A DNA stretch of 64,000 bases, taken from NCBI GenBank assembly GCA_026770705.1, contig JANJGN010000031.1:1116001-1180000 (forward strand). Direction: 5' to 3'. Below the pieces are notes generated by a model. It was not told where the DNA came from, did not search any database, and saw nothing but the letters and a program-made list of their open reading frames with translations. The translations under genes were made by a program, and so were the position numbers. The stretch is from Isurus oxyrinchus (taxonomy: Eukaryota). This document shows, piece by piece, positions 1,791 to 47,290 of the stretch. How positions within the stretch are numbered: position 1 is the stretch's first letter; every line of letters starts with the position of its first letter.

Positions 1791-2470
1791 GCTTCTGTGT
1801 AAAAGCACTCTATGTTTACTGGAGTGCCAGGGGGGCTGGATATGTAAGTGGGAGACTGCTGCAGCTGTACAGCCGCCACATCTGTAAAAAAGAGAGTGAA
1901 AAGACAAACGTTAATACTAACACCCCTTGAGGGAGCACACGAACAGAGAGTGAAATAGAGTAGGCGATAATGAGAGCAGGGGGAGTGAGGCAGTGATGTA
2001 GATATAGAGAAAGAGCGAAATCCGGATAAAGAGAGGGCAGAATCAGAGAGACAAAGACAAATAGAGAGAGAGAGAAAAAAAAACAAAGAGAAATGTAAAC
2101 CAAGGGCAATCTATAGGGCTTGAAAGGAATAGAGTGAGATAGATTGATAGAGAGAGGAAACAGACAGAGGTGCAGGGAGACAAGCAGAGAAAGCAAGGCC
2201 AGGCTATAGAAAGAAATAAGAAAATAGATTGAAAGAGAGAGAAGCAGAGTGACAGGGAGAGAAACTCAGATGGAGAGACAATTACAGCGGTGTACAAACA
2301 GATGCAAAGGGAATCCACACCTTCAAGATACGTGAATAAGCTCATAAAGGGGGTTAAACCCTAATCAGGGCACACAGGGCAATAACAATGAGCATCATTG
2401 CCACCTCAGAGGCCAGTTCCACCTTACACGGTAAGATCAGCAACACAGCCCAGAGCTGAGACACAGACAT
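1791..2470 (-). pseudogene. TRBV: Inverted TCR beta V segment (TRBV30-like CAWS family), interrupted in CDR1 by a CR1 LINE
   Basis: Leader exon 2470-2428 (MSVSQLWAVLLILP, donor GTAAGG), CT-rich intron, acceptor ttttttacag, V exon from 1881 (VAAVQLQQSPTYISSPPGTPVNIECFYTEA), then LINE sequence. Closely similar to the intact V genes at 36-46 kb. Confidence 0.9.
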
Positions 2471-3317: not shown

Positions 3318-3733
3318 CCAGGCGCAGTAATACACCCTCCAGTGCCGCCCTTGCAGGCTGGACGCTTGCAGGTCGAGTCATCGGATCTCGAGGCGGTGAA
3401 ACCATACACTTTTCCAAAGGTTCGATGTTGCCGGAGTTGGGAGAGTAGAAAACGAGAAAGAACTCTTGATTTTGGAGCTGGTGATACCAAACGAACTCTG
3501 AGCCGTCGGCTCCCGACGCAGAACAGCGAATCTGCAGCGTTGAGTACAGGAAATTGGAGATTACAGGCCTTGTCTGCTGAATTTTGCCGCTTGCTGCAGT
3601 TGGGTATAGGAGGAGCACAATAGGGGTAAAATCCAGGAACATGAGATTTGCAGCCAAACTGTTCCAATGTACTGAAGGGGGGAGATTCGCTGTGTAACAG
3701 CAGCGCAGACACCAGACATAGAGTGAAATGCAT
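3318..3733 (-). pseudogene. TRBV: Inverted TCR V pseudogene (CAW-ending family)
   Basis: Leader 3733-3691 (MHFTLCLVSALLLH) with a non-canonical GC donor and a short intron. V exon from 3593: SGKIQQT...IRCSASGADGSEFVWYHQ...FYSPNSGNIEP, frameshift to GKVYGFTASRS, ending VYYCAW at 3318. Heptamer degraded (CATAGTA), no nonamer. Confidence 0.85.
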
Positions 3734-9775: not shown

Positions 9776-10250
9776 CCGCCCCGTCTCAGACACTGCCGCC
9801 TAACAAGGTCTAGTTATAGATTAATGGCAGCTGGACAGACAGTGAGGGACAGACAGGGAGGAAGAGGCAGAGAGAGAGAGAGCGATAGGTACATTGTTAG
9901 ATAGAGACGTCAATGGGAAGATAGATAGACAGACCGTACCACTTTTCGCTCTGTGTTTCTCCTTTTCTATTCCCTATCTCTCTCGCCCTGTCTTTTCCAT
10001 CACTCTCTCGCTATCCCCCACGCGTTGCCCCTACGTTGTTCCCTTTCCGCGCTCCCTCATTCGCTCACCTGCCCTTTCCGCCTCCCTCCCCATCTCCTCA
10101 CTCACTTATTTCTTTGCTCAATCTCACACCCTCTCTCCAACTGTCCAAATCTCACTTACTCTATCTCTCTTTCTCTCTCTATACCCCTGACCCTCTATCA
10201 AGCCAATATCAAATCAGAAAATTTCCATTAACATTGTCTGTCTTTTACAG

Positions 10251-14910: not shown

Positions 14911-15859
14911 ATGTTGCATAAAGTTCACTTTGCATTTCTTATGGTTACACTGTTCCCAAGTAAGTCAAATTATTAACATTTGTAGAATATTGCATGTTAA
15001 TGTCAGCTTTCGTTCAGTTGGTAATAGCCTTCCATCTGAAGAGAAAGTCATAGGTTCGAGACGTACTCCAGATAACTGAGCTCAAAACCAATGCTGATAC
15101 TCCAGTTGTCACCACTGAGGAAGTGTTTAACAGTCGGAGAGGCAGTACTAAAGAATCGCTCTTCAATTTCTGAAGTAGTCCTGAGAGAGCGCTGCCCTGT
15201 TGCAGACGCCCTATTTTTGGGTGTAAATAGAATTGCCCCTTCAGGTGGATTTAAGTAATCCCACAGAAGATCAGCACGGAGTTCTTCCCCGTGTCCTGTG
15301 CGAACCTTTAAACATGTATCTCTTCAAAAGTCCTTATGAGCTTCTCATTATTACATTGCTGTTTGTTGGACTCTTGCAGTGCACAAATTGGCCGCAGTGT
15401 TTGCCCCATTTCAGCAGGAGTGCACTTTAAAAGTATTATATCGTATACATTTGTGATGTTATGCTGTTTTAACAGGCACTGTAAGCTCTTTCTTTCTTGC
15501 AATGTAACACTGCTTTAATCGATTATTGTCAGATATAAAAATCTAATCGAATTTCCATTCAACAGGAATATTCGCCTCTTACGTGGAACAGTCGCCTTCT
15601 GTTTTATCGCTTGCAGCAGCAGAATCGACAACACTGAGATGTAAGCTGACGAATACTAACTATCGCAATATGCTTTGGTACAGACAACGACCAGATCGGA
15701 CATTAGAAGCTCTTTTCAGTTCTGCTGGAGCAGGGAATGTTATGAATTACACACTTGAGTCGTTTAAGGCCGAGAGAATCAATAATACGCTGTTTACAAT
15801 GAAACTGAGTAACGCCTCTCCATCTCACACCGCTGTCTACTTCTGTGTCTGTAGTATCG
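14911..15859 (+). CDS. TRBV: Apparently functional TCR beta V gene segment (leader 14911-14959, V exon 15566-15859)
   Basis: Leader MLHKVHFAFLMVTLFP + GTAAGT, phase-1 splice to aacag/GA. Open frame RIFASYVEQSPSVLSLAAAESTTLRCKLTNTNYRNMLWYRQRPDRTLEALFSSAGAG...SHTAVYFCVCS with both canonical Cys and WYRQ; good 23-RSS. Confidence 0.92.
15005..15440 (+). mobile_element. tRNA-derived Deu-domain SINE (SacSINE1-like) in the leader intron
   Basis: A-box-like gttcagttggt, B-box ggttcgaga, Deu-like core (ctgaggaagtg, caggtggat, gttcttccccgtgtcctg, cacaaattggc). Confidence 0.7.
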
Positions 15860-15898
15860 CACAGCGTTTGGGAAAGATGGATTGCAGCTACAAAAACC
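15860..15898 (+). promoter_or_regulatory. 23-RSS
   Basis: CACAGCG + 23 bp + ACAAAAACC. Confidence 0.95.
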
Positions 15899-18591: not shown

Positions 18592-18893
18592 AATTGTCCG
18601 CTTCTGTTCACACCGGGTATTAGGCTATGATGAGATGTGGACTGAGGAACTAACGATCCAGAACTGTTCTTTCACCAATAAAGGGGAAACGGGGAACTCG
18701 TCTCTCTATTCTATTCTACCATGACCGCCCACATTTCCAGTTACACGGCGGAATCACTTTAAAGTCCAGAGATTCAGCAATGCCCAATTTAGCTTGGAGC
18801 TCTCCAGGACCCACCCCTAGCACTCCATCGTCCACTTCTGGGCATGCAATGGCGCACGGCGCGTGAAAACACCAGCTGCCTGACACAAAATGA
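18592..18893 (+). pseudogene. TRBV: Degraded V pseudogene related to the 15566 V, with 23-RSS
   Basis: GELVSLFYSTMTAHISSYTAES / FKVQRFSNAQFSLELSRTHP*HSIVHFWACN; CACGGCG(18855) + 23 bp + ACAAAATGA. Confidence 0.8.
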
Positions 18894-28691: not shown

Positions 28692-29019
28692 GCGAAACAT
28701 TGACAGAAGTGATCCACCAGTGTCCAACTCTCCTGTCGATGAATAGAGGCAAGACCAGCAGGATGAATCTATTAAGAGATTGACGGCAGCAATAGCCTCA
28801 TGCTCTGGTATCGTCGTTCGGTCGGCAGGGTTTCAGCCTAATGGGTTATTCTATGAACGGAATTGCAGCCACTTATGAAGAAGACTTTGAGAAGGAAGCC
28901 AAGATTATAAGGTCCATGAGAGAATTGCATCTTAACGGCCTTCCAAGCGAATTCGGCGTTGTATCACTGCAAACAATGAGCAAAGAGCTGAACACTGCCT
29001 TGGTGCCAGTACAAAAACC
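28692..29019 (+). pseudogene. TRBV: V pseudogene (TRBV20/29-like ATYEE.FEK motif) with defective 23-RSS
   Basis: EVIHQCPTLLSMNRG.., NSLMLWYRR, FSLMGYSMNGIAATYEEDFEK, NSALYHC; frameshifts; CAAAGAG(28981) + 23 bp + ACAAAAACC. Confidence 0.88.
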
Positions 29020-32503: not shown

Positions 32504-33166
32504 ATGGCTGGGGCTCAGGTCTGGGTTGTGATGCTGATGCTAACGGGTAAGCTGGAGCTGGACGCTGAGGATATAGAGAATGTCTGTGTGAATATTTAAG
32601 TGTATGTGTGTGTGCAAGTGCTTTTCGTTTTCTGCCGTTCTCAGTCACTCCCTTTCGCTCTTTCACTATTTTTTCTCCTTCCAATTCTGTTTCCCCCCTC
32701 CCCCGTCTTAATCGCTGCTTTGCCCGCTCACTCTTCTTTCTTATTTTCTCTATTATCACGCGCACCAGTGTCCTTTCATAGTGGGTATTGAGGTAGAATG
32801 TATTCCCTGGTTTCTATGCCTCTCTCACTCTCACTCTCTGATTTACAGATGTGGCGGCCGTGCTGATCCAACAGACTCCCGCTTCCAAATCCAGTTCCCC
32901 GGGCACTCCAGTCAGCATCTAGTGCCGTTACATTGACGCTGATGCGAGCACCTATTTCTACTGGTACCGATGGCATCGTGACCGTGAGCCTCAGAATTTT
33001 TTTTATTCCAACGTCGCTGGCATGGTGAGGAGGATCGGTTTCACGGCGAGGACACTCAACAACACTCGATTTTATCCGGAGTCCTCCAGCTTGCGGGAGG
33101 GTCAATCGGCCATGCATTATTGTGTCCAGAGTTTTCACTGTGAATCAGAAGAGTTCAAGAAAAACC
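32504..33166 (+). pseudogene. TRBV: TRBV30-like V pseudogene with 15-bp-spacer RSS
   Basis: TATAAAA at 32474, leader 32504-32546 (MAGAQVWVVMLMLT), V exon from 32849 with in-frame TAG before Cys23 and a CDR2 deletion, ending HYCVQSF. CACTGTG(33136) + 15 bp + AGAAAAACC. Confidence 0.92.
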
Positions 33167-34536
33167 CTAAAGTGGTCAAAATGAACTTTTAGGCGATAGA
33201 ACTCTCTTTCTGTCTGTTAGTGTTTGTGTGTCTCTCTTTGTCTCTTTATAAATTCATCTTTGTGTGTATGCATGCATGTCTGCATGTATGGATCTATCTT
33301 TTGATCTGTCTATGCATTCTGCCCCTGTAGTTTTCAGCGGGTGGTACATTATCGTTTGTTATTTTATTGACACCGATTAGTTTTGCTGTCATTACATTTT
33401 GAGTATCAAAATGTCACATGGATGTCCTTATGTTTTCTCGTTAAGTAAGCCACGATCATTTAAGAACGTATGAAGTGAAAGGTTACATACGTACCATCAT
33501 CACACTACCGGCTTTTCCAAAGATTTCTCCCCCATTTCCTTTTGAATGTTTCCATTGAAGCTGCTTCCACCCACCACCACCCGGTCAGGATCTATTCCAA
33601 AGTTAAAACATGCGCTTTGGAGGATTCTATACATCGGTCACTCTGATTCTTTTGCCAATTCCATTCAATTAGTGTCTCCTGGTAACCGACCCTTTACTAA
33701 TGGATACTGTTTCTTCATATTTCATCATCAAAACACGTCAGGGTTTTGAACACGGCTTTCAAATCTCCTCACTGCTCTAAGGGAAATAATTCTACACATA
33801 TAGGAAATAGTTCATCTTTAAACTCTTACATATATCACCCATCATTCATACTGTGCAAAGGCGGGGCATCTCTCTAGAAAACACTCCCTCTGGGACACCT
33901 GCCCGGACGGCGGTTTGAGCTCATGTTGAAGACTGTTAAAGCACCTGCCTAACAGATTCTTGCTGCCTTTTGAAGAGTTTTAAAAGCGAAGTGAAGAATT
34001 TTACCCTCAATTGTTCGCTTAGCAGACGAGAAACGAAACTGCATCGGCCTCAAACAAGGGACCATTTTGACGCTTTTGCGAGAATCATGGAGTCATACAA
34101 AACAGAGCAAGGCCATTTAGCCAATAGAATATGTTGTTTGAAAGGGGCATCCAATTAATCCCACATCATCGTCCTCTCACATCACATTTCTTCATGTTAA
34201 TCCTATTGGCACGTTCTTCTATTATTTTTCTTTCTCATGTTTTTGTCCAGCTTTCCTTTAAATGCATCTATGCTGTTCGCCTTAATCGGCTCCCCTGGTA
34301 GCAACTTCTACACTGTCCCCATAATCTGGGTAAAAGACTGATTGTGAATTCCCAACAACTTTTCTTAGTGATTACCTTATATTGATGATGGCGTGTTTAC
34401 AGCTTCCCTATTCAATTGCGCCCATTCCCTGCTCATTGCCAAATTCCCTCCTTTTAGGTTCCTCTTCAAGATTTTATCCAGTGCCCTTTTGAAACTTATG
34501 ACTGAATCTGCTTTCATCGCACTGTCAGGCAACTCA

Positions 34537-36093: not shown

Positions 36094-36944
36094 ATGGTGT
36101 CTCAGCTCTTGTTCCTGTTTTTAGTCTTACCGGGTAAGGTGACGATGAACGGCGAGGTATCAATGACCTTCACTGTCATTGTCGTATGTATCCCTTTGAA
36201 GATAAAGTCCCCCTCATTGCCCCACCCGAGCCCCACACCCACCCGGGGTTCATTCATAAAGATGCAGAATCTCTGCATATCCTTAGATGCCAATGTCTGT
36301 CTGTCACTGTCCGTCACTGTCTCTTTTTCTCCCCTTCTTTCTATTTCTCTCAACGAGTTCTCGCTCTGTGCTCATATCGGTTTACGTTGCTCTCTTTCTC
36401 CCTCTCTCTCCATTTCTTTTTGTTCTTGGTTTTTCAACTCTTTGTGTTTCTCCCTTTGCCTGTCTCTGTCCCTCTCATTATCTCTCTCTGCCTTCGTTTC
36501 TCGCACTTTATCTTTCTATAAATTGTTTCATCTCTCTCTCTCTCTCTCTCTCATTCATGCCACCCCATCATTCACGCTAACCTCTTGTGCCATTTCAAGA
36601 AGTGACAAAATTAACATCTCTGTCTTTTCACAGTCGGTTTTACAGATATGGCGTCCGTGCTGATCCAACAGACTCCAGCTTACATTACCGGTTCCCCGGG
36701 CACTCCAGTCAGCATCGAGTGCATTTACACAAAAGCCAGTGTTAGCAGCTATTTCTACTGGTACCGATGGTACCCTGACCGTGAGCCTCGAAATCTTTTC
36801 TATTCCACCATCGCTGGCACGGTCATTCCCTCCGGTGAGGTGGACGGTTTCAACGCGACAAGACCCGACAACACCCGTTTCTATCTGGAATCCTCCGGCT
36901 TGCGGGTGAATCACTCGGCTATGTATTATTGTGCCTGGAGTAAA
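36094..36944 (+). CDS. TRBV: Apparently functional TCR beta V gene segment, TRBV30-like (leader 36094-36133, V exon 36634 or 36646 to 36944)
   Basis: Leader MVSQLLFLFLVLP + GTAAGG. Open frame VLIQQTPAYITGSPGTPVSIECIYTKASVSSYFYWYRWYPDREPRNLFYSTIAG...NHSAMYYCAWS; 23-RSS follows. Confidence 0.93.
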
Positions 36945-36983
36945 CACATCGACTCAAAGAGACGGAAGAGTTCAACAAAAACC
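36945..36983 (+). promoter_or_regulatory. 23-RSS with weak heptamer
   Basis: CACATCG + 23 bp + ACAAAAACC. Confidence 0.88.
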
Positions 36984-37272
36984 CCAACGGGACTAAACTA
37001 TAACTGTAGGAGAGAGAAATCTCTTTCCATCTCTTTTTATCTTTCCATTTGTCCGTCTGTCTTATCAACCTATCTTCCTATCTATCTATCTATCTGTCTA
37101 TCTATCTATCTTTATATCTATCTCCCTATATAATTCCTATATATCATCTATTTATTTATCGCCCATCAATTGGGATCTCTATTATCTCTCTATCTATCTA
37201 CTTACTTAACGATATAGTTTCCCAATCACACAGGCAGTTTCAAACATACGTGTTTTCTCCACATTTCCTCAG

Positions 37273-37596
37273 GCAAAATGTTGGCAGAGGCGATGCACGA
37301 ATGGCCAATTCTGGTGTCGATGAATAGAGGCGAGCCAGCAGCATGAAACTGTTACCAAAATGGGGGCAGCAATAGCCTCATGCTCTGGTATAGTCCTTCG
37401 GTCGCCAGGGCCTCAGCCTAATGGGATATTCCTCGAATGGAATTGCAGCCAAATACCAAGAAGGCTTTGAGAAGGACGTCAAGATTATAAGGCCGTTGAA
37501 CTTTGCAGCTTGAGGATTTAGCAGGTTTCGATGGCGGATTCGGCCGAAAGCAGTGAGCAAAGAGCTGAAGACTGCTTTGGTGCCAATTCCAAAACC
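37273..37596 (+). pseudogene. TRBV: V pseudogene, duplicate of 28692-29019
   Basis: EAMHEWPILVSMNRG, NSLMLWY, LSLMGYSSNGIAAKYQEGFEK; YYC deleted; CAAAGAG(37558) + 23 bp + TCCAAAACC. Confidence 0.88.
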
Positions 37597-39049
37597 AACC
37601 GGTTGATGGCTAAGAGCTGTGACAGCGGCAAGTGTCTTCCCGCTACACGGAATCCACCAATTCCACCAATTCTTTCGCACCTTCACCAAGACAGAATGAG
37701 AGGGAAATAACAGAAGTTCCAGAATATGAGGGGGAGCGAGGGAAAGAAAGAAAGGCATGTGTCTCAGATGCCACTCGGAATTCAGACTCCTTGCCTTCGC
37801 TGATTCAATTTTGTTGTGTGTGATACATTCATTCACAGTCGCTGTCCCATGAGAATTAAACCGGATGAGAACTGAGGCAAATTTTAAAAATGTTAACACC
37901 ACGGCAGGGAACTGATATAAGGAGAATTAATCATCTGAAAGGCACAAAACTGGAGAATGATGGAATACTCTCCACTTAGTTGGGTAAGTGCAGTACATTA
38001 ATACTCGTGAATTTCGACATCATCCAGGAAAAAAAAAACAGCTTGTTTGATAGGCACCCCATCCACAACCTTAAATATTTACTACTTTCGCAACGGCGGA
38101 CAATGGCAACAGTGTTTGTACCATCTACAAGAAAGACTGCAGCAACTAACTCAACAACGTTCATTACACAGCCCCTTTCAAACCTTCGACCTCTAACACC
38201 GAAAAGGTCAAGGGCAGCATATAGAGGGGAACACCGCCACCTGGAAATTCCCCTCCAAGTCATTCGCCATCCTGACTTGGAATTTTACGCCTTCCCTTCA
38301 CTGATGCTGGATCAAAAATCGGGAACTCCCTTCCCAATAGCTGTGGGGCGTAGCTACAACACATGGGCTGCAGCGGTTCAACAAAGCGGCTTACCACCAC
38401 ATTTTTTTCAAAGGCAATGAGCGATTGGAAATAATTGCTGGGCTTTTGAGCGACGGTTTAATTTGAAAAGAGTAAAGAAAATCAATGATTCAATAAAAGA
38501 AAATCGACTCTTTAGTCTGTTCTATTTGGGGCAATACGTGTCACTGATCCTGATCCAAGATTTTAGTGTTTGCACCCAGTTGGAATTTTGCAAGATTTCC
38601 ACTGTTGGCCGATGGTTGTCCCACGTGCTGGTAAGAAGTGAGCACAGCACCTTTATTGTGAATCAAGCACAACTTTCACATTTATCGCCACAAGTGTAAC
38701 TCGTAATTGTCCTAACTCTTTCTCACCATCCATGTTTCCAAAATTAAGGGTCAATGTGCTGGTGGTGTGTTATGAGGTGAAGAACTTTTTTCAGGCGAGA
38801 AATCTCCACAATAGCATGTTATGTCCACAGTTCCCCGACGGAGGCGAAGATCAGTATGTTGGTTTCCAATAGCTGCTTTGTTATTGGAAAATATTTCGTT
38901 TTAAAAGCTCAGAACATGGAGAGAATTGAGCTCAAAGTCTTTGCAGCTGCTGACGGAGTATAAACTGACATAACTTGGCTGCAGACTCATCTACCTTTAC
39001 CCAGGAGTCAAAATGCAGGTCCTAATGCCCATACCAATCTTTCTACACC

Positions 39050-39390
39050 TTGGTTAGGTACTTGTGCTGATCATAGCTTGATACCATACATTGCGTGCGG
39101 ATAAGATCTCCAGATATCTTGGTTAGACTACTCTTGGAGTGATGCACATAATTCAGGTCTCCATGTACATTGCTTAAAGTACACTCAGAGTGATGCACTC
39201 AATTCAGGTCTCCATGTGTAATGGCTACATCAAACTCGAAAGACTGTACAAAATTCAGGCCTCCATGTGTCATGGTTTGACCACGGCTGCAGGGGTGTAC
39301 ACAAATCAGGCTTCCATGTGCAATGGTTAAATCCCAACTAGAGAAAGGTGCAAGATCTTAATCTCAATATAACAAGGTTAGATTATACTT
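39050..39390 (+). repeat. ~51-bp CR1-derived minisatellite (unit B copy, more units than in A)
   Basis: Repeated ttggttagac...aattcaggtctccatgt units. Confidence 0.8.
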
Positions 39391-40354
39391 GAAGCAATTT
39401 GCACAAGTGCCGACTTTTTTCTTCCTTGGTTAGACCACATTTAGAGTATGTCCTTGTCAAACCTCTCAGTAAAGTCTTAATAAGCTGGGTCTCTTATCAC
39501 TGCTAAATAAATAACCGAAGGGTAAGTAGATAAAATTCGTGAATGGTATTAACACGTTCGATGGAATATGGATTGGGAAGATGCTTGCATTTGTGGGACA
39601 AGACCAGAGCTAGGAGGCATAAATATAAGATAACCATTAATAAATATAAAAAGGAATTAAGGGATACGATTTGATACAGACAGCGATGAAAGTGTGGAAC
39701 TCGCAACCACAGGGAGTTGGTTGAGGTGAATAGCATAGATGCAGTCAAAGGGAAGCCGGATACGCATAAGAGGGGAAAGGAAATCAAAGGAGATGCTGAT
39801 AAGTGAGATAAAAAGAGCCATAATAGATCTGTTCGGCCAAATGGTCTCATTTATGTGTTCTGCTTTATATGCGAATCCATGCAACAAACGTCAGCATCCG
39901 CTAATTGGAAAGCGGATGTACCTCCTGGCAGGACCTGCAAGTTACCCTCCAATCAGTTAAGCTGCGGATACCGCAGGACCTTGTGCATATATATCATAGC
40001 CACCAGAGGGCGATGCAGAGCCATGTCAACCTGTGTCGCTCGGTTTTTGATGCCAAATGTTTAAAAATTGAGAAATGACTTTCTCCACCTTTAGTCAATA
40101 TCTTTAGGAAGCATGGCAAGCCCTCAGGCAGGATGCGAAGGATATTCTCCAGAGAAGCCCGCCTCTGAAATGACTACTGCTGACATGGGAACCAAGGAAG
40201 CAGGAAAGAAGGATTTGTCCCACGCGTCCGAAAATGCAAGATGTTGGAGGAAGCAACAATAAATTCCACCGCCCGCACAGAACATGGAGAAATTCAAATG
40301 AACACTGCTTCTTGAATTCACACAATAAGCAATGCGGTATTCCTCTCTCCCGCG

Positions 40355-40993
40355 ATGCCTGGTGCTTAGCTCTGGGTTGTGATGGTGATGATAACGGGTA
40401 ATGTGGAGCTGGACGGTGAGGAAAAGGCGATTTTTGTGTGGATGTTTGTGTGTGTGCTTCTCACTCTTTGCCGTTCTCTGTCTCTCTCTGTCTCTCGTTC
40501 TCTGTTTCTTTCTCTTTCAATCTTTTTCCCCCACTTCCTTAGTCTATAACGGTCAGTTTCACGCTCCCTCCTCTTTCTCATCCACTCTCTGTGTGGGCAC
40601 TTCATAACGGGTTTCGATGTGGAGTTTATTCCCGGGTTTCTATGTTTCTCCCAGTCTCCCTCTCCATTTTACAGATATGGCGGAAGTCCTGATCCAACAA
40701 ACTCACTTTTCCATATCCAGTCCCTGGGCACTCCAGTTAGCATCGAGTGCCTTTACACAGAAGTAGATGCTAGAAGCAATTTCTAATGGTACCGATGGCA
40801 CCTTGACCGTGAGCCTCAGAACCTTTCCTATTCCAACGTCGCTGGCATGTTGAGGAGGAAGGTTTCACCGCGAGGACACTCAACAACAGCCTTTTTTTTT
40901 ATCAGGAGTCCTTCGGCCTCCAGGAGGATAAATAGACCGTGTATTATTGTGCCCGAAGTGTTCACTGTGACTCAGAAGAGTTCAACAAAAATC
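40355..40993 (+). pseudogene. TRBV: TRBV30-like V pseudogene with 15-bp-spacer RSS, duplicate of 32504-33166
   Basis: Leader 40355-40397 contains a TAG. V exon from 40675 has frameshifts and a TAA, ending VYYCARSV. CACTGTG(40963) + 15 bp + ACAAAAATC. Confidence 0.92.
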
Positions 40994-42891
40994 CAAAAGG
41001 GATCAAAATGAAACTGTAAGTGATATATCTCTCTTTCTGTCTGTTAGCGTTTGTGTGTCTCTCTCTCACTCTGTGTCGTTTTATCCATGTACCTCTCTGT
41101 GCACGCATGCATGGAAGTATGTATGCATCCATATATCTATTGATCTGCCTTCCTATAACTGCCCCTGTAGTTTTCAGCGCGTGGTACATCATTGTTTGTT
41201 ATTTTATTCATATCGACCAATCCTGTTCTCTTTTCCTTCAGATTATGTCCTTACATTCTGACTATTAAAATGTTACAGGAGTGTTCTGATGTTCTTCTCG
41301 TTAAGGAAGCCGCGATCATTTAGGAACATATGACGTGAATACATGGGCCTACTCGCACCATCATGCCTGTACCCGCTCTTCCAAAGAACTTTCCCCCGTT
41401 CCTTTTTGAACGTTTCCATTGAAGCCACTTCCACGCGCCATGCTCCGGTCAGAGTATATTCCAGAGTGATAAACATGCGCTGAGGAAGATTCCACACACT
41501 GGTCGCTTTGATTATTTTGGCGATTCCCTGAACTCCATGTCCCCTTGTTACTGATTACTCACCAATGGAGAGTGTTTCTCCACATTTCATAATCAAAACA
41601 CTTCAGGATTTTGAACATGCCTTTTAAACCTTCTCACTGCTCTAAAGGAAACAATTCTACAAAAATTGCATATAATTCATCTTTAAAACCTTAAGTATAT
41701 CACCGTTCATTCATACAGGGCAAAGGCGGGACATCTCTCTAGCCAACTCTCTCGCTGGGACACCTGAACCGACGGCGGTTTCAGCTAATGTTGAAGACTG
41801 TTAAAGCACCTGCCTAACACATTCTTGCTGCCTTTTGAAGATTTTACAAAACTAAGTGGAGAATTTAACCCTGAATTGTTCGTTTAGCAGACCAGAAAAG
41901 TAACTCCGCCTGCATCAAACAAGGGAGCATTTTGACGCTTTTACAAGGATCATGGAATCATACAAAACCGAACAAGACCTTTCAGCTCATGGAATTTATC
42001 CCGGTTGTTGGAAAGAGGCATCCAGTTAAAGCCACATTATCCTCCTCCCACATTACACTTTCCATGTTACCCTATCGGTACATCCTCCTATTCATTTTCT
42101 TTCTCATGCTTTTGTCCAGCTTTCCTTTAAATATATTTATGCTTTTCGCCTTAATCGGCTCCCGTGCTCCCAACTTCTACATTGTCCCCATACTCTGGCT
42201 AAAGTGACTGTTTCTGAATTCCCTACAAGATTTTTTTAGTGATTATCTTATACTGATGACGGAGAGTTTACATCTCCCTTATTCAATTGCGCCCATCCCC
42301 TGTACATTTCCAAATTCCCTCCATTTAATTCCTGTTCAACGTTTTATCCAGTGTTCTTTTGAAACTAAAATTGAATATGCTTTCATCGCACTGTCAGGCA
42401 GTTCATTCTCCACGATAAAACTCACTGAGTTAAACAGATCCTGCTGGTCTAACACTTTTGTACTTTTGTCAATGCCTCTGAACCCGAGTGCCCTGCAAAA
42501 ACATCCGTGCCTGATTAGCCACGCCCGGAAACTTCCAGTAATTAAAAAAAAACAAGATACTAGGATGCTGGAAATCTGAAATCAAAACAGAAAAGTTCCA
42601 AATCCTCAGCAGATCAGGTAACATCTGTGAAGAGAAACAAATTAACGTGTCAGGTCAGGCGATGCATGAACTGCAGAATATTCCTGGCAATTTCTCTCAC
42701 TCAGGAAATGACAAGTCCCGTTCTGGGAGCCAATGAAAACGAAAAGCAAATTGGCTTCTCCCATCAGACGATTTAACATTCGGCAAATGGGGACAGCGAA
42801 TCTCACTAGGAGCTCAGAATCTCAGATATTCTACAATATAACGGTGTAGTCATTTCACGCAGTAAACACCCGGATCTTTCACCATCCGGAG

Positions 42892-43765
42892 ATGTCTGTG
42901 TCTCATCTCTGGTTCCTGTTTCTGATGTTGCTGGGTAAGGTAGAGTTGAAAGGCGAGGTGTCAATAGTTCTCACAGTTATTGCTTTTCACATATATCCAT
43001 TTGGAGTAAAGGCATCCTTTCCCATCCCACCCGAACCTCACCCCACTCGGGGGTTCATTCATACGCCTTGAAGATGTGGAATTTCACATCTGAGTAGATG
43101 CCAAAATCTGTCTGTCACTCTCCGCCACTGTCCCTTTTTCTCTCTGTCTCTTCCTTCCTCTCGTCGCTTCCCCGTTCTCTGCCCGCCTTTGCTTCCCTCG
43201 CTCTCTATCTCACTCTCTCCATTTCGTTTTGTTCTAGGTTTTTCAAATTTTTGTGTCTCTGTCTCTGTCCACATAATGTTTTTCCCTCTCTCTTTGTCGG
43301 TCTATCTCTCTCTCTGCCTACGTGTCTCGCACTTATCTTTCTCTGTACAGTTTCACGACTCTCTCTCTCTCTCATTCACCCCGACCTACCGTTCACGCTC
43401 ACTTCTTGTGCCATTTCAAGCAGCGGCAAAATTAACATCTCTGTTTTTTCACAGTCGGTTTTACAGATGTGGAGGCCGTGCTGATCCAACAGACTCCGGC
43501 TTACATATCCGGTTCCCCGGGCACTCCAGTCAGCATCGAGTGCTTCTACACACAAGGAAGTGTTACAGCCTATTTCTACTGGTTCCGATGGTACCCTGAC
43601 CGTGAGCCTGAGATTCTTTTCTATGCTGCCGCCGCTGGCACGGTCACTCCCTCACGTGAGGTGGACGGTTTCACCGCGAGAAGGCCTGACAACATGTACT
43701 TTTACCTGGCGTCCGCCGGCCTTCGGGCGAATCACTCGGCTGTGTATTATTGCGCCTGGAGTTTA
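42892..43765 (+). CDS. TRBV: Apparently functional TCR beta V gene segment, TRBV30-like (leader 42892-42934, V exon 43455 or 43467 to 43765)
   Basis: Leader MSVSHLWFLFLMLL + GTAAGG. Open frame VLIQQTPAYISGSPGTPVSIECFYTQGSVTAYFYWFRWYPDREPEILFYAAAAG...NHSAVYYCAWS. Confidence 0.94.
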
Positions 43766-43804
43766 CACAGCGACTTACAGAGATGCAGGATCTCAACAAA
43801 AACC
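43766..43804 (+). promoter_or_regulatory. 23-RSS
   Basis: CACAGCG + 23 bp + ACAAAAACC. Confidence 0.95.
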
Positions 43805-45673
43805 CAAACAGAGCCAAAATATAGTTGTAGGAGAGAGAACTATCTTTGCCACTGTTGGTGCTTGTGTGTGTCCCTCTCTCTTTCTGCGTGTCGCTTTATC
43901 TATCTATCTAACTCTGTACACGCATACATGTAAGGATGCATGAATGTATCTATCTAATGATCTGCTAACTATTACTGCCCCTGCTGTTTTCAGCGTTTGG
44001 GACATAATTCTGTGTTACTTTATTGACATGGACTAATCTTCTCTTTTCCGTTAGATCATGTCATTACATTCTGAGTATTAAAATGTTACATGCATGTTCT
44101 GATGTTCTTCTCGTTAACGAAGCCGTAATTCTTTAACAACATATGAAGTGAAGGGGGACATGAGACTATTCGCACCATTATGCCTATACCCGCTCATCCA
44201 GAGAACTTTCCCCAGTTCCCTTTTGAACGTTTCCATTGAAGCTGCTTCCCCAGTCATAATCTATTTCAGAGCGATAACCATCTGTTGAGGAGGATTCTAC
44301 ACATCGAACACTGATTCTTTTGCCAATTCCATTCAATCGGTGTCCCCTGGTAAATGGATACTTTTTTTTCCATATTTAATCATCAAAACACCTTAGGGCT
44401 TTGTACACGTCTTTCAAATCTCCTCACTGCTCTAAGGAAACAATTCTACAGTATTAGGAAATAGTTAACCTTTAAATTCTTTAATATGTCACCGATGATT
44501 CACACAGGGCAAAGGCGGGAGATCACTTCAGATAACTCTGTCACTTGGACACCTCAATAGACGGCGGTTTGAGTTCATGTTGAAGACTGTTAAAGCATCT
44601 GCGTAACATATTCGTGCCGGCTAATGAAGAGTTTTCAATATGAAGTGAAGAATATAACCCTGAATTGTTCCTTTAGAATGTGAGAAATGAAACTGGGCCT
44701 GCCTCAAACAAGGGAGCATTTTCAGGCTTTTGGAACAATCATGGAATCATGCAAAATCGAACAAGAGCATTCAGCTCATGGAGTTTAGCCCGGTTGTTGG
44801 AAAAGAAGCATCCAGTTAATCCAACATCATCCTCCTCCCACATTACATTTCTTCATGTTACCCTATCGACACATCCTCCTATTCCTTTTCTCTCTCATGC
44901 TTTTGTCCAGCTTTCCTTTAAATGCATCTATGCTGTTCGCCTTAATCGGCTCCCGTGGTAGCAACTTCGACACTGTGCCCATAATCTGGGTAAAGTGATT
45001 GCTTCCGAATTCCCTGCTAGAATTCTTAGTGATTATCTTATATTGATTACGGCGAGTTTACATTTCCCCTATTCAATTGTGCTCATCTCCTGCACATGTC
45101 CAAGTTCCCTCCATTTAGTTCTTCTTCAAGGTTTTATCCAGTGCCCTTTTGAAACTTTTTAATGACTGTGCTTTCATCACACTGTCAGGCAGCTCATTCT
45201 TTACGATATAACGCGCTGATGTAAACGAATTCTCCTGATCTGACACTTTGGTGCATTTGCCAATGCCCCTGAATCTGAGTTTTCTCCCAAAACTTCTGTG
45301 CCTGATTAGCCACTCCCGGAAGCGACCAGTAATAAAAGGGCAAAATGCTGGGTTGCTGGAAATCCAAAATGAAAACAGAAGAAGTTATAAATACTCAGCA
45401 GGCAAAGCAACATTTGTGAACAGAAACGAAGTTAACGTGTCAGGTCAGGCAATGCCTGAATTGTTGAATATGTCTACCATTTTCTGACACTCAGCAAATG
45501 ACAGGTGCCGTTCTGGGAGCCAATGACACAGAAAAGCAATCTGGCCCCTCCCATCCAACTATTTTACATTCAGGACATGGAGACAACCAATCCTACTCAG
45601 CGCTCAGATATTCTATAACGAAACAGCGCAGTGATTTCACACAGTAACTACACGGATCTTTCACCATCCAGAG

Positions 45674-46551
45674 ATGTCTGTGCCTCGTCTCTGGTTCCTG
45701 TTTCTGGTGCTAAGGGGTAAGGCGGAGTTGAACGGCCAGGTGTCAATGATCCTCATTGCTATTTTTCGTATGTATCCCTTTGGAGTTAAGGCCGCCCTCA
45801 CTACCCGGGAGTTCATTCATACGCCTTGAAGATGTAGAATCTGTGCATCTGTTTAAATGCCAATGCCTGTCTGTCACTCTCCGTCACTGTCCCTTTCTCT
45901 GTCTCTCTCTCTCTATTCTTCTCAGCGCTTTCTCGTCCTGTGCCAATATCTGTTTCCCTTGCTCTCTTTATCTCACTCTCTCCGTCTCTTCTCGTTTATG
46001 GTTTTTCATCTTTTTGTGTTTCTCCCTCTACCTGTCTCTGTCCGTTTCACTATCTCTCCCTCTCTCTCTCTCTCTCCTTCTATCTCTATCTGTCTATCTC
46101 TCACCCTTCTCGCACTATATCTGGCTTTCTCTATACGGTTTCACCACTCCCTCGCTCTGATTCTCCCCGTCCTATCGTTCACGCTAACTTCTTGTGCCAT
46201 TTCAAGCAGTGGCAAAATTAACATCTCTGTTTTTTCACAGTCGATTTTACCGTTGTGGCGGCCGTGCTGATCCAACAGACTCCCGCTTACATATCCGGTT
46301 CCCTGGGCACACCAATCAGCATCGTATGCTTTTACACAAAAGCAAGTGCTGGCAGCGAATTCTACTGGTACCGATGGCGCCCTGCCCGTGAGCCTCAGAA
46401 CCTTTTCTATTCCAACACTGCTGGCACGGCCACTGCCTCCGGTAAGGTAGATGGTTTCACCGCGAGAAGACCCAACAACACCCACTTTTACCTGGATTCT
46501 TCCGGTCTGCGGGCGAATCACTCGGCTGTGTATTATTGCGCCTGGAGTAAA
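45674..46551 (+). CDS. TRBV: Apparently functional TCR beta V gene segment, TRBV30-like (leader 45674-45716, V exon 46241-46551)
   Basis: Leader MSVPRLWFLFLVLR + GTAAGG, acceptor tttttcacag at 46240. Open frame VLIQQTPAYISGSLGTPISIVCFYTKASAGSEFYWYRWRPAREPQNLFYSNTAG...NHSAVYYCAWS. Confidence 0.93.
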
Positions 46552-46590
46552 CACAGCGACTCACAAAGACGGAAGAGCTCAACAAAAACC
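46552..46590 (+). promoter_or_regulatory. 23-RSS
   Basis: CACAGCG + 23 bp + ACAAAAACC. Confidence 0.95.
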
Positions 46591-46984: not shown

Positions 46985-47290
46985 CTTCATGAATCGTCTC
47001 GTTTCCCTGTGGTGGAACAGGTTGTCAGCTGTGGAGGGAAATATACTTTCCAGAAGGAAATCGGGGTTAACTATCTGTATTGGTGTCACCAGCACAACAG
47101 AGCAGGTTTGCAACTCGTAGTGATCCCGACTGGCACGTCTGAGGCAACGTCCGCAGAGGGCTTCAATGACTGGTTTAAAGGCACCTGACCCAATTTCAAG
47201 CCCGGCGTGGAGCCGACGGATACAGCACTGTATTGCTGGGCTGCCACTGATCTCAGAGACACAAAGAGGTGCAAGGCTTGTTCAAAACAA
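46985..47290 (+). pseudogene. TRBV: Degraded V pseudogene with degenerate 23-RSS
   Basis: VNYLYWCHQHNRAGLQLVVIPTGTSEATSAEGFNDWFKGT*PN..VEPTDTALYCWAAT; CTCAGAG(47252) + 23 bp + TCAAAACAA. Confidence 0.8.

What the first reader, a model, noticed from the sequence alone, without database searches (positions are those of the whole stretch)
36094..46590. Expanded TRBV30-like V family in a probable shark
Seen: three intact genes (and three or more pseudogenes elsewhere in the window) share G.P.SI.C, YW(Y/F)R, R.P..LFY, A.RP.N..FYL.S.GL and CAWS. Known (from memory): human TRBV30 reads ..GSPLSLEC..LYWYRQAAGRGLQLLFYSVGIG..SASRPQDRQFILSSKKL..YLCAWS and is the single inverted V 3' of TRBC in mammals. 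Inference: this lineage dates to the base of jawed vertebrates and is multi-copy here rather than a singleton.
Basis: partly seen in the sequence, partly recalled or inferred. Interest (0 to 1): 0.7.

Follow-up and report, generated by a model that had tools for sequence, protein, structure and literature searches.

The report
Shark TRBV30-lineage T-cell receptor genes
These are three intact shark T-cell receptor beta variable genes lying just upstream of a beta joining-and-constant cluster; they likely belong to an old gene lineage that mammals keep as one backwards-facing gene, although a sister group of genes elsewhere in the same locus resembles the mammalian gene much more closely.

Summary
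Three leader+V genes have open frames, GT/AG introns and 23-spacer RSS, and three same-family pseudogenes lie in the window. They are TRBV: a beta D, 9 J and a C-beta follow 20 kb downstream on the same strand, so they are ordinary D-proximal V genes, not inverted 3' ones. Nearest proteins come from horn shark and catshark. The TRBV30 link is real but indirect. These genes (subfamily A) are only 36-37% identical to a mammalian TRBV30-cluster protein; a sister subfamily B outside the window reaches 51% and ranks it first. Among TRBV rows alone, A+B+bony-vertebrate TRBV30-like genes separate at 100/99; adding TRAV rows removes that support. A and B supply 26 of 37 intact V in the 1.06 Mb examined. 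Multi-copy, non-inverted members of this clade are published for tuatara and axolotl; 9 paper searches found no shark placement, but older shark papers were not held. This scan noted a similar expansion in another genome. Extras: the locus is an old tail-to-tail duplication with two D-J-C clusters, a third cluster lies on another contig, and subfamily A has Trp at the usual interface Gln.

The parts
36094..36133 (+). Leader exon, TRBV gene 1 (subfamily A)
   Evidence: ATG to GT donor, hydrophobic peptide
36634..36944 (+). V exon, gene 1 (open frame, both Cys, Trp41, ends CAWSK)
36945..36983 (+). 23-spacer RSS of gene 1 (heptamer 2 mismatches, nonamer perfect)
42892..42934 (+). Leader exon, gene 2
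   Evidence: spliced contig in run X1
43455..43765 (+). V exon, gene 2
   Evidence: X1 contig joins leader to this exon across a GT..AG gap of 520 bases, 0 mismatches over 233 exon bases
43766..43804 (+). 23-spacer RSS of gene 2
45674..45716 (+). Leader exon, gene 3
46241..46551 (+). V exon, gene 3; last intact V found before D1 (20 kb downstream, beyond the window end)
46552..46590 (+). 23-spacer RSS of gene 3
32831..33170 (+). Subfamily A pseudogene (in-frame stop, short deletion, degenerate RSS)
40663..41000 (+). Subfamily A pseudogene between genes 1 and 2 (frameshift, stops)
1791..1906 (-). Subfamily A 5' fragment, inverted
3318..3591 (-). Divergent CAW-type V remnant, frameshifted, inverted
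15568..15898 (+). Intact TRBV of another family (begins YVEQSP like nurse shark beta-V2/V3) with 23-spacer RSS
   Evidence: primer table in PMC5931798
9450..9775 (+). Frameshifted TRBV pseudogene of another family, with RSS

Best explanation
These are three intact T-cell receptor beta V genes of a shark, lying on the same strand as and 20-30 kb upstream of a beta D-J-C cluster, and they likely form an elasmobranch offshoot (subfamily A) of the lineage that includes mammalian TRBV30. Shown: gene structure, RSS, position, the D-J-C clusters, and leader-to-V splicing of gene 2 in one sample. Inferred from established V(D)J rules: RAG would join each 23-spacer V to the 12-spacer side of a D-J, by deletion to cluster 1 or by inversion to the oppositely facing cluster 2. 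Inferred history: the lineage predates the shark/bony-vertebrate split; in elasmobranchs it expanded by tandem birth-and-death into subfamilies A and B, was copied again with the inverted duplication of the locus, and now supplies most intact V genes here, whereas mammals keep one copy 3' of C.
For: D with the conserved beta core flanked by 12/23 RSS at G000:C31:1182558, 9 J, C1-set exon at 1200283 and a TM exon with the Tyr/Lys/Tyr pattern. The same D core is reported for squamate TRBD (PMC11754216). The top 8 of 100 non-chondrichthyan domains for each of the three genes are all TRBV30-lineage rows. Shark-free profiles score the three genes 79-86 bits for the two TRBV30-lineage groups against 44-59 for other TRBV, TRAV and Ig-kappa, while other shark V families prefer other profiles. 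Tree of 44 TRBV rows: A+B+bony TRBV30-like rows form one side at 100/99; quick tree of 139 rows SH-aLRT 90. Fold search of the gene-1 model ranks TRBV30-type chains 1, 2 and 8 of at least 500, with the highest identities and top TM-score among the rows listed. Subfamily B hits the same chains at 88-89 bits against 58 for the next plain beta chain. Database names TRBV30 on related donkey, bichir and lizard proteins. Changed codons in the CDRs are 25 nonsynonymous to 1 synonymous, against 51 to 32 in frameworks, summed over three non-independent pairs.
Against: Gene 1 alone and the A-only profile did not bring a TRBV30 chain into the 60 PDB rows shown (lists crowded by multi-domain constructs). 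The mammalian TRBV30-cluster protein ranks only 15-18 of 100 for these genes, 36-37% identity. With TRAV and the YVEQSP family included, A+B+bony TRBV30 was a clade in 0 of 200 bootstrap trees under the mixture model and had 55/86 support under LG+G4. AU tests rejected none of the alternatives: A outside B+bony p 0.23; A with other TRBV p 0.11 and 0.21; A with the fish group p 0.26. Only 96-97 columns. Reference rows came from a search with the shark profile, so the comparison set is partly circular; 24 of 153 proteins carry source names, and the outgroup labels are my assignment from recalled motifs. No rearranged V-D-J transcript was seen.
Confidence: 0.8

Rival explanations
1. Subfamily A is a separate ancient V-beta lineage, sister to or merely near the TRBV30 group; only subfamily B is the TRBV30 orthologue.
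For: A is monophyletic at 99-100 in every tree and sits in an unresolved polytomy; B+bony without A is not rejected, p 0.23; the YVEQSP family also leans to the TRBV30 profile, 68-76 bits against 60-64, so the profile signal is not exclusive.
Against: A and B are about 50% identical, well above the identity of either to other families; A groups with a ray gene at 95/77 and 95/92; A+B is barely worse than the best tree (p 0.45).
Confidence: 0.12
2. The TRBV30 lineage had already split in the jawed ancestor, and A is orthologous to a sturgeon/teleost branch with which it shares framework motifs and, in teleosts, Trp at position 44.
For: The best non-shark pairwise hit for 3 of 3 genes is in that fish group; its profile scores slightly above the TRBV30-proper profile, 83-86 against 79-82; AU p 0.26.
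Against: The best trees keep all bony-vertebrate rows together (79/93, 88/92, 91/97); the sturgeon-type members keep Gln44, so the Trp is more simply convergent.
Confidence: 0.07
3. The genes serve another chain (alpha/delta/gamma), or the expansion is an assembly artefact.
For: TRAV rows fall on the same side of the 98/100 split as this lineage in one tree; the subfamily B array is made of 22.6-kb units 98.5-99.3% identical, so its copy number is uncertain.
Against: The only D-J-C found in the 1.06 Mb are beta-type; the three genes differ by 15-18% in DNA; the two locus arms differ by 13-26%; DNA contigs of run X2 cover all 30 bins of the finding.
Confidence: 0.01

Closest known systems
Human TRBV30 / mouse TRBV31 / opossum TRBV28 (single inverted 3' TRBV; PMC2275272)
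   Same: Beta-chain V with CAWS end, shared framework motifs, 23-spacer RSS; best structural and profile match group.
   Different: Multi-copy, 5' of D and in the same orientation as C; only 36-37% identical; one residue longer in CDR1 than subfamily B; Trp where most V domains have the interface Gln.
3'-inverted TRBV clade and squamate TREV (PMC11754216)
   Same: Same lineage; that paper reports five inverted copies in tuatara, non-inverted axolotl members, low bootstrap support, and proposes an origin inside the main array, which fits the shark arrangement.
   Different: Its tree used 3 nurse shark V genes (supplement Table 2) and the text names no shark member of the clade; here the lineage makes up 26 of 37 intact V in the region examined.
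Salmonid and pike double TRB loci in opposite orientation (PMC10464911)
   Same: Two V-D-J-C units facing opposite ways on one chromosome.
   Different: Those are head-to-head with V genes in the middle; the shark locus is tail-to-tail, with the C genes facing inward and V arrays outside.

Membership tests
TRBV gene | Leader exon, intron and V exon with both Cys and Trp41, open frame | tested here: met
TRBV gene | 3' RSS with 23-base spacer | tested here: met
   3 of 3
TRBV gene | Linked to a 12/23-flanked beta D, 12-spacer J and C-beta | tested here: met
   the PDB search with the C exon listed Ig chains, not TRBC, in its top 60, so C identity rests on the D core, the TM pattern and context
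TRBV gene | Rearranged V-D-J-C-beta transcript | tested here: inconclusive
   Only leader-V splicing seen, one contig of depth 2 in one sample whose RNA status is a guess; it ends before the V end
TRBV30 lineage (broad clade) | Closer to TRBV30-like genes than to other TRBV | tested here: met
TRBV30 lineage (broad clade) | Supported monophyly with TRBV30 against all other V classes | tested here: inconclusive
   0 of 200 bootstrap trees; 55/86; TRGV and TRDV not deliberately sampled
One-to-one orthologue of mammalian TRBV30 | Reciprocal best match | tested here: not met
   TRBV30-cluster protein prefers subfamily B (250 against 123-131) and ranks 15-18 of 100 for these genes
One-to-one orthologue of mammalian TRBV30 | Single copy, inverted, 3' of TRBC | tested here: not met
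   Genes are 5' of D1, same strand; 6 intact and 13 broken A copies

The most novel reading that the evidence does not exclude
The lineage that mammals keep as one inverted relic was the dominant V-beta group of early jawed vertebrates and had already split in two; the branch seen here swapped the conserved V-alpha/V-beta interface glutamine for tryptophan and pairs with a restricted set of alpha chains, marking a distinct alpha-beta T-cell subset in sharks and possibly teleosts.
Probability: 0.1. Interest if true: 0.72.

Novelty: new member of a known kind. Interest (0 to 1): 0.4.

Why it matters
It probably extends a named V-beta lineage from amphibians back to cartilaginous fish (about 450 million years, recalled date), and shows it in the main 5' array, as the published model of the inverted V's origin predicts. 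It gives a first map of this shark's TRB region (two facing D-J-C clusters and a third elsewhere), which makes questions of locus exclusion and inversional joining testable. The result is expected rather than surprising, since ancient V-beta lineages and multi-copy members outside mammals are already in print.

Tried and rejected
PDB sequence searches with gene 1 and with the A-only profile were crowded by multi-domain antibody constructs and showed no TRBV30 chain in the 60 rows listed. PDB search with the C exon likewise listed Ig chains only. A Pfam C1-set search of the genome was saturated by other loci, 150 of 973 candidates scored, none on C31. The first intact/broken count had a spacer bug that mislabelled two intact genes; one search replaces it. 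No RNA holder was listed as such by the run search; lack of cover over genes 1 and 3 in the RNA-guess runs is not evidence. I fetched 19 stretches of C163/C1134 hoping for alpha V genes to look for a change matching Trp44; the 22 intact V found were beta-type, so that test was not done. I considered claiming that the mammalian 3'-inverted position is conserved in sharks: TRBV30-lineage genes do lie inverted 3' of both C genes, but all 9 CAW-type copies between C1 and C2 are broken (8 A or B, 1 divergent), inverted V blocks recur in the 5' array, and an inverted copy of the locus's 5' flank sits beside them, so ancestry against local duplication cannot be told. No trypsinogen, EPHB6, KEL or TRPV motif was hit in the 1.06 Mb by a crude motif scan, which is weak. 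Five paper look-ups by id, aimed at Rast and Litman 1994, Criscitiello 2010 and Ott 2021, were not held; Hawke 1996 was not tried. From recall, unverified, these older papers may already note horned shark V-beta families resembling human V-beta20 (TRBV30).

Full report
Observation. The window is G000:C31:1116001-1180000 of a 4.98 Gb genome. All quoted motifs are present. Three same-family pseudogenes and a divergent CAW-type remnant lie in the window, along with one intact V and several broken V of other families (13 V-like spots in all). The nearest proteins are from catshark and horn shark, 65-71% identical.

Which chain. I fetched C31:716001-1780000 (plus the window). Twenty kb past gene 3 lies a D with the conserved beta core between 12- and 23-spacer signals, then 9 J, a C1-set exon and a transmembrane exon of beta type. 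The genes are therefore D-proximal TRBV in the same orientation as C. A neighbour at window 15568 begins with the peptide used for nurse shark beta-V2/V3 primers (PMC5931798, passages) and its single-domain PDB hits are TCR beta chains. One contig from a run guessed to be RNA joins the gene 2 leader to its V exon at the predicted GT..AG sites with no mismatch over 233 exon bases; a second contig of the same sample splices a paralogue. This is one sample at depth 2-4 and shows no V-D-J joint.

Locus. A second D-J-C (8 J found) faces the first from C31:1347542, C exons 92% identical in protein. About 128 kb on the left, including this window from base 9886 on, mirrors 1286779-1436218 at roughly 74-87% identity, so the duplication is old and not a haplotype copy. 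A third D-J-C with 7 J and a C 56% identical lies on contig C2826, and C163/C1134 carry more beta-type V genes (22 intact in 19 sampled stretches, none CAWS). In the 1.06 Mb, 104 V-like spots were found: subfamily A 6 open frames with RSS and 13 broken; subfamily B 20 and 31; a divergent CAW type 0 and 4; other families 11 and 19. Leaders were found for 13 of the 20 B genes, and B copy number rests on 22.6-kb units 98.5-99.3% alike. The counts are for this region only, not the genome.

Relation to TRBV30. Subfamily B, outside the window, hits human TCR beta chains of the TRBV30 type (3hg1_E, 5xov_J; that Mel5 uses TRBV30 is recalled) at 88-89 bits against 58 for the next plain beta chain. A profile of 15 A and B genes retrieved 150 listed proteins of 2853; 20 were looked up and include bamboo shark, rays, bichir, sturgeon, gar, teleosts, newt, caecilian, turtle, lizard and a cluster whose donkey member is named TRBV30. 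Against 100 non-chondrichthyan domains, that mammalian protein ranks 1st for a B gene (51%) but 15th-18th for the three window genes (36-37%), though their top 8 hits are all TRBV30-lineage rows. Shark-free profiles give the three genes 79-86 bits for TRBV30-lineage groups and 44-59 for others. An AlphaFold model of gene 1 (pLDDT 82.9, one good model of five) ranks TRBV30-type chains 1, 2 and 8, by a thin margin. Trees: 139 rows, SH-aLRT 90; 44 of those rows, TRBV only, 100/99. Against this, in 74 rows under the mixture model four TRAV rows and three rows of the YVEQSP family fell inside the same 98/100 group and the strict clade appeared in 0 of 200 bootstrap trees; in 52 rows it had 55/86. 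No AU test rejected an alternative. Rows were thinned by identity (130 to 115 external, 44 to 24 shark) and then chosen by hand for the smaller trees. I conclude that A likely belongs to the broad lineage as a derived elasmobranch branch, and that B is the closer counterpart of TRBV30.

Mechanism. By established V(D)J rules these V genes would join D-J of cluster 1 by deletion; those on one arm could join the other cluster by inversion, as mammalian TRBV30 does (inferred, not observed). Expansion is by tandem duplication with frequent decay; amino-acid change is concentrated in the CDRs (25 nonsynonymous to 1 synonymous codon against 51 to 32 in frameworks, three non-independent pairs, approximate CDR limits). 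Subfamily A has Trp three residues after the conserved Trp in 8 of 8 aligned members, where most V domains have the Gln described as the centre of the V-alpha/V-beta hydrogen-bond link (PMC5289058, passages; the mapping to position 44 is from recall). A teleost group shows the same change while sturgeon relatives keep Gln. An effect on alpha-chain pairing is a hypothesis only.

What is known. Orthology of the inverted V among mammals: PMC2275272 (passages). A weakly supported 3'-inverted clade with five copies in tuatara and non-inverted axolotl members, and a model in which it came from the main array: PMC11754216 (passages, supplement Table 2, and part 1 of 2 of a tree PDF whose text is scrambled, so shark placement in it could not be read with certainty). 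Multiple inverted V genes are called common outside mammals in PMC12698447 (passages). Opposed double TRB loci in salmonids and pike: PMC10464911 (passages). Passages of PMC12529555, PMC10322711, PMC6795676 and PMC5278385 added no shark TRB map; the supplements of PMC10322711, which list TRB elements for some species, were not opened and may bear on this. Nine searches found no paper placing shark V genes with TRBV30 or describing a tail-to-tail shark TRB, but the library lacks the classic shark TCR papers.

Verdict. A real, correctly read set of shark TRBV genes; the lineage claim is likely right in the broad sense and needs the corrections above. New member of a known kind; interest 0.4.

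Noticed in passing
G000:C31:1125886-1436218 (includes window 9886-64000): The TRB locus is an old tail-to-tail inverted duplication with two facing D-J-C clusters; arms roughly 74-87% identical.
   Followed up: partly
G000:C2826:19082-35492 (L102-L104); C163 and C1134 (L107-L125): A third beta D-J-C cluster with a variant D and a C 56% identical to C1, and a second large array of beta-type V genes on other contigs; probably a second TRB region.
   Followed up: partly
G000:C31:1439241-1601414 (L026-L083): Subfamily B array, 20 open V frames with RSS, up to 51% identical to a mammalian TRBV30-cluster protein; built of 22.6-kb units 98.5-99.3% alike; several copies end in PRSL or PWSL instead of AWSL.
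   Followed up: yes
G000:C31:1225597-1307064 (L005-L013): Nine broken CAW-type V genes lie inverted 3' of C1 or C2; the only intact inverted V there (1235475, - strand) is of another family.
   Followed up: partly
G000:C31:734295-816213 and 1258040-1279412: [quoted passage not shown]
   Followed up: partly
window 36768-36770, 43589-43591, 46375-46377: Subfamily A has Trp where most V domains carry the interface Gln; shared with a teleost group but not with sturgeon relatives.
   Followed up: partly
window 15568-15898: Intact V of the nurse shark beta-V2/V3 type; it pairs at 99/91-99/94 with an unnamed protein P0153 and leans toward the TRBV30 side of the trees, perhaps another ancient lineage.
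   Followed up: partly
G000:C31:844680-1119591: The left V array is made of large tandem units, several ending in a block of inverted V genes.
   Followed up: no
window 28706-29005, 37284-37495, 46985-47251, 18758-18850: Further broken V genes of other families interleaved with subfamily A.
   Followed up: no
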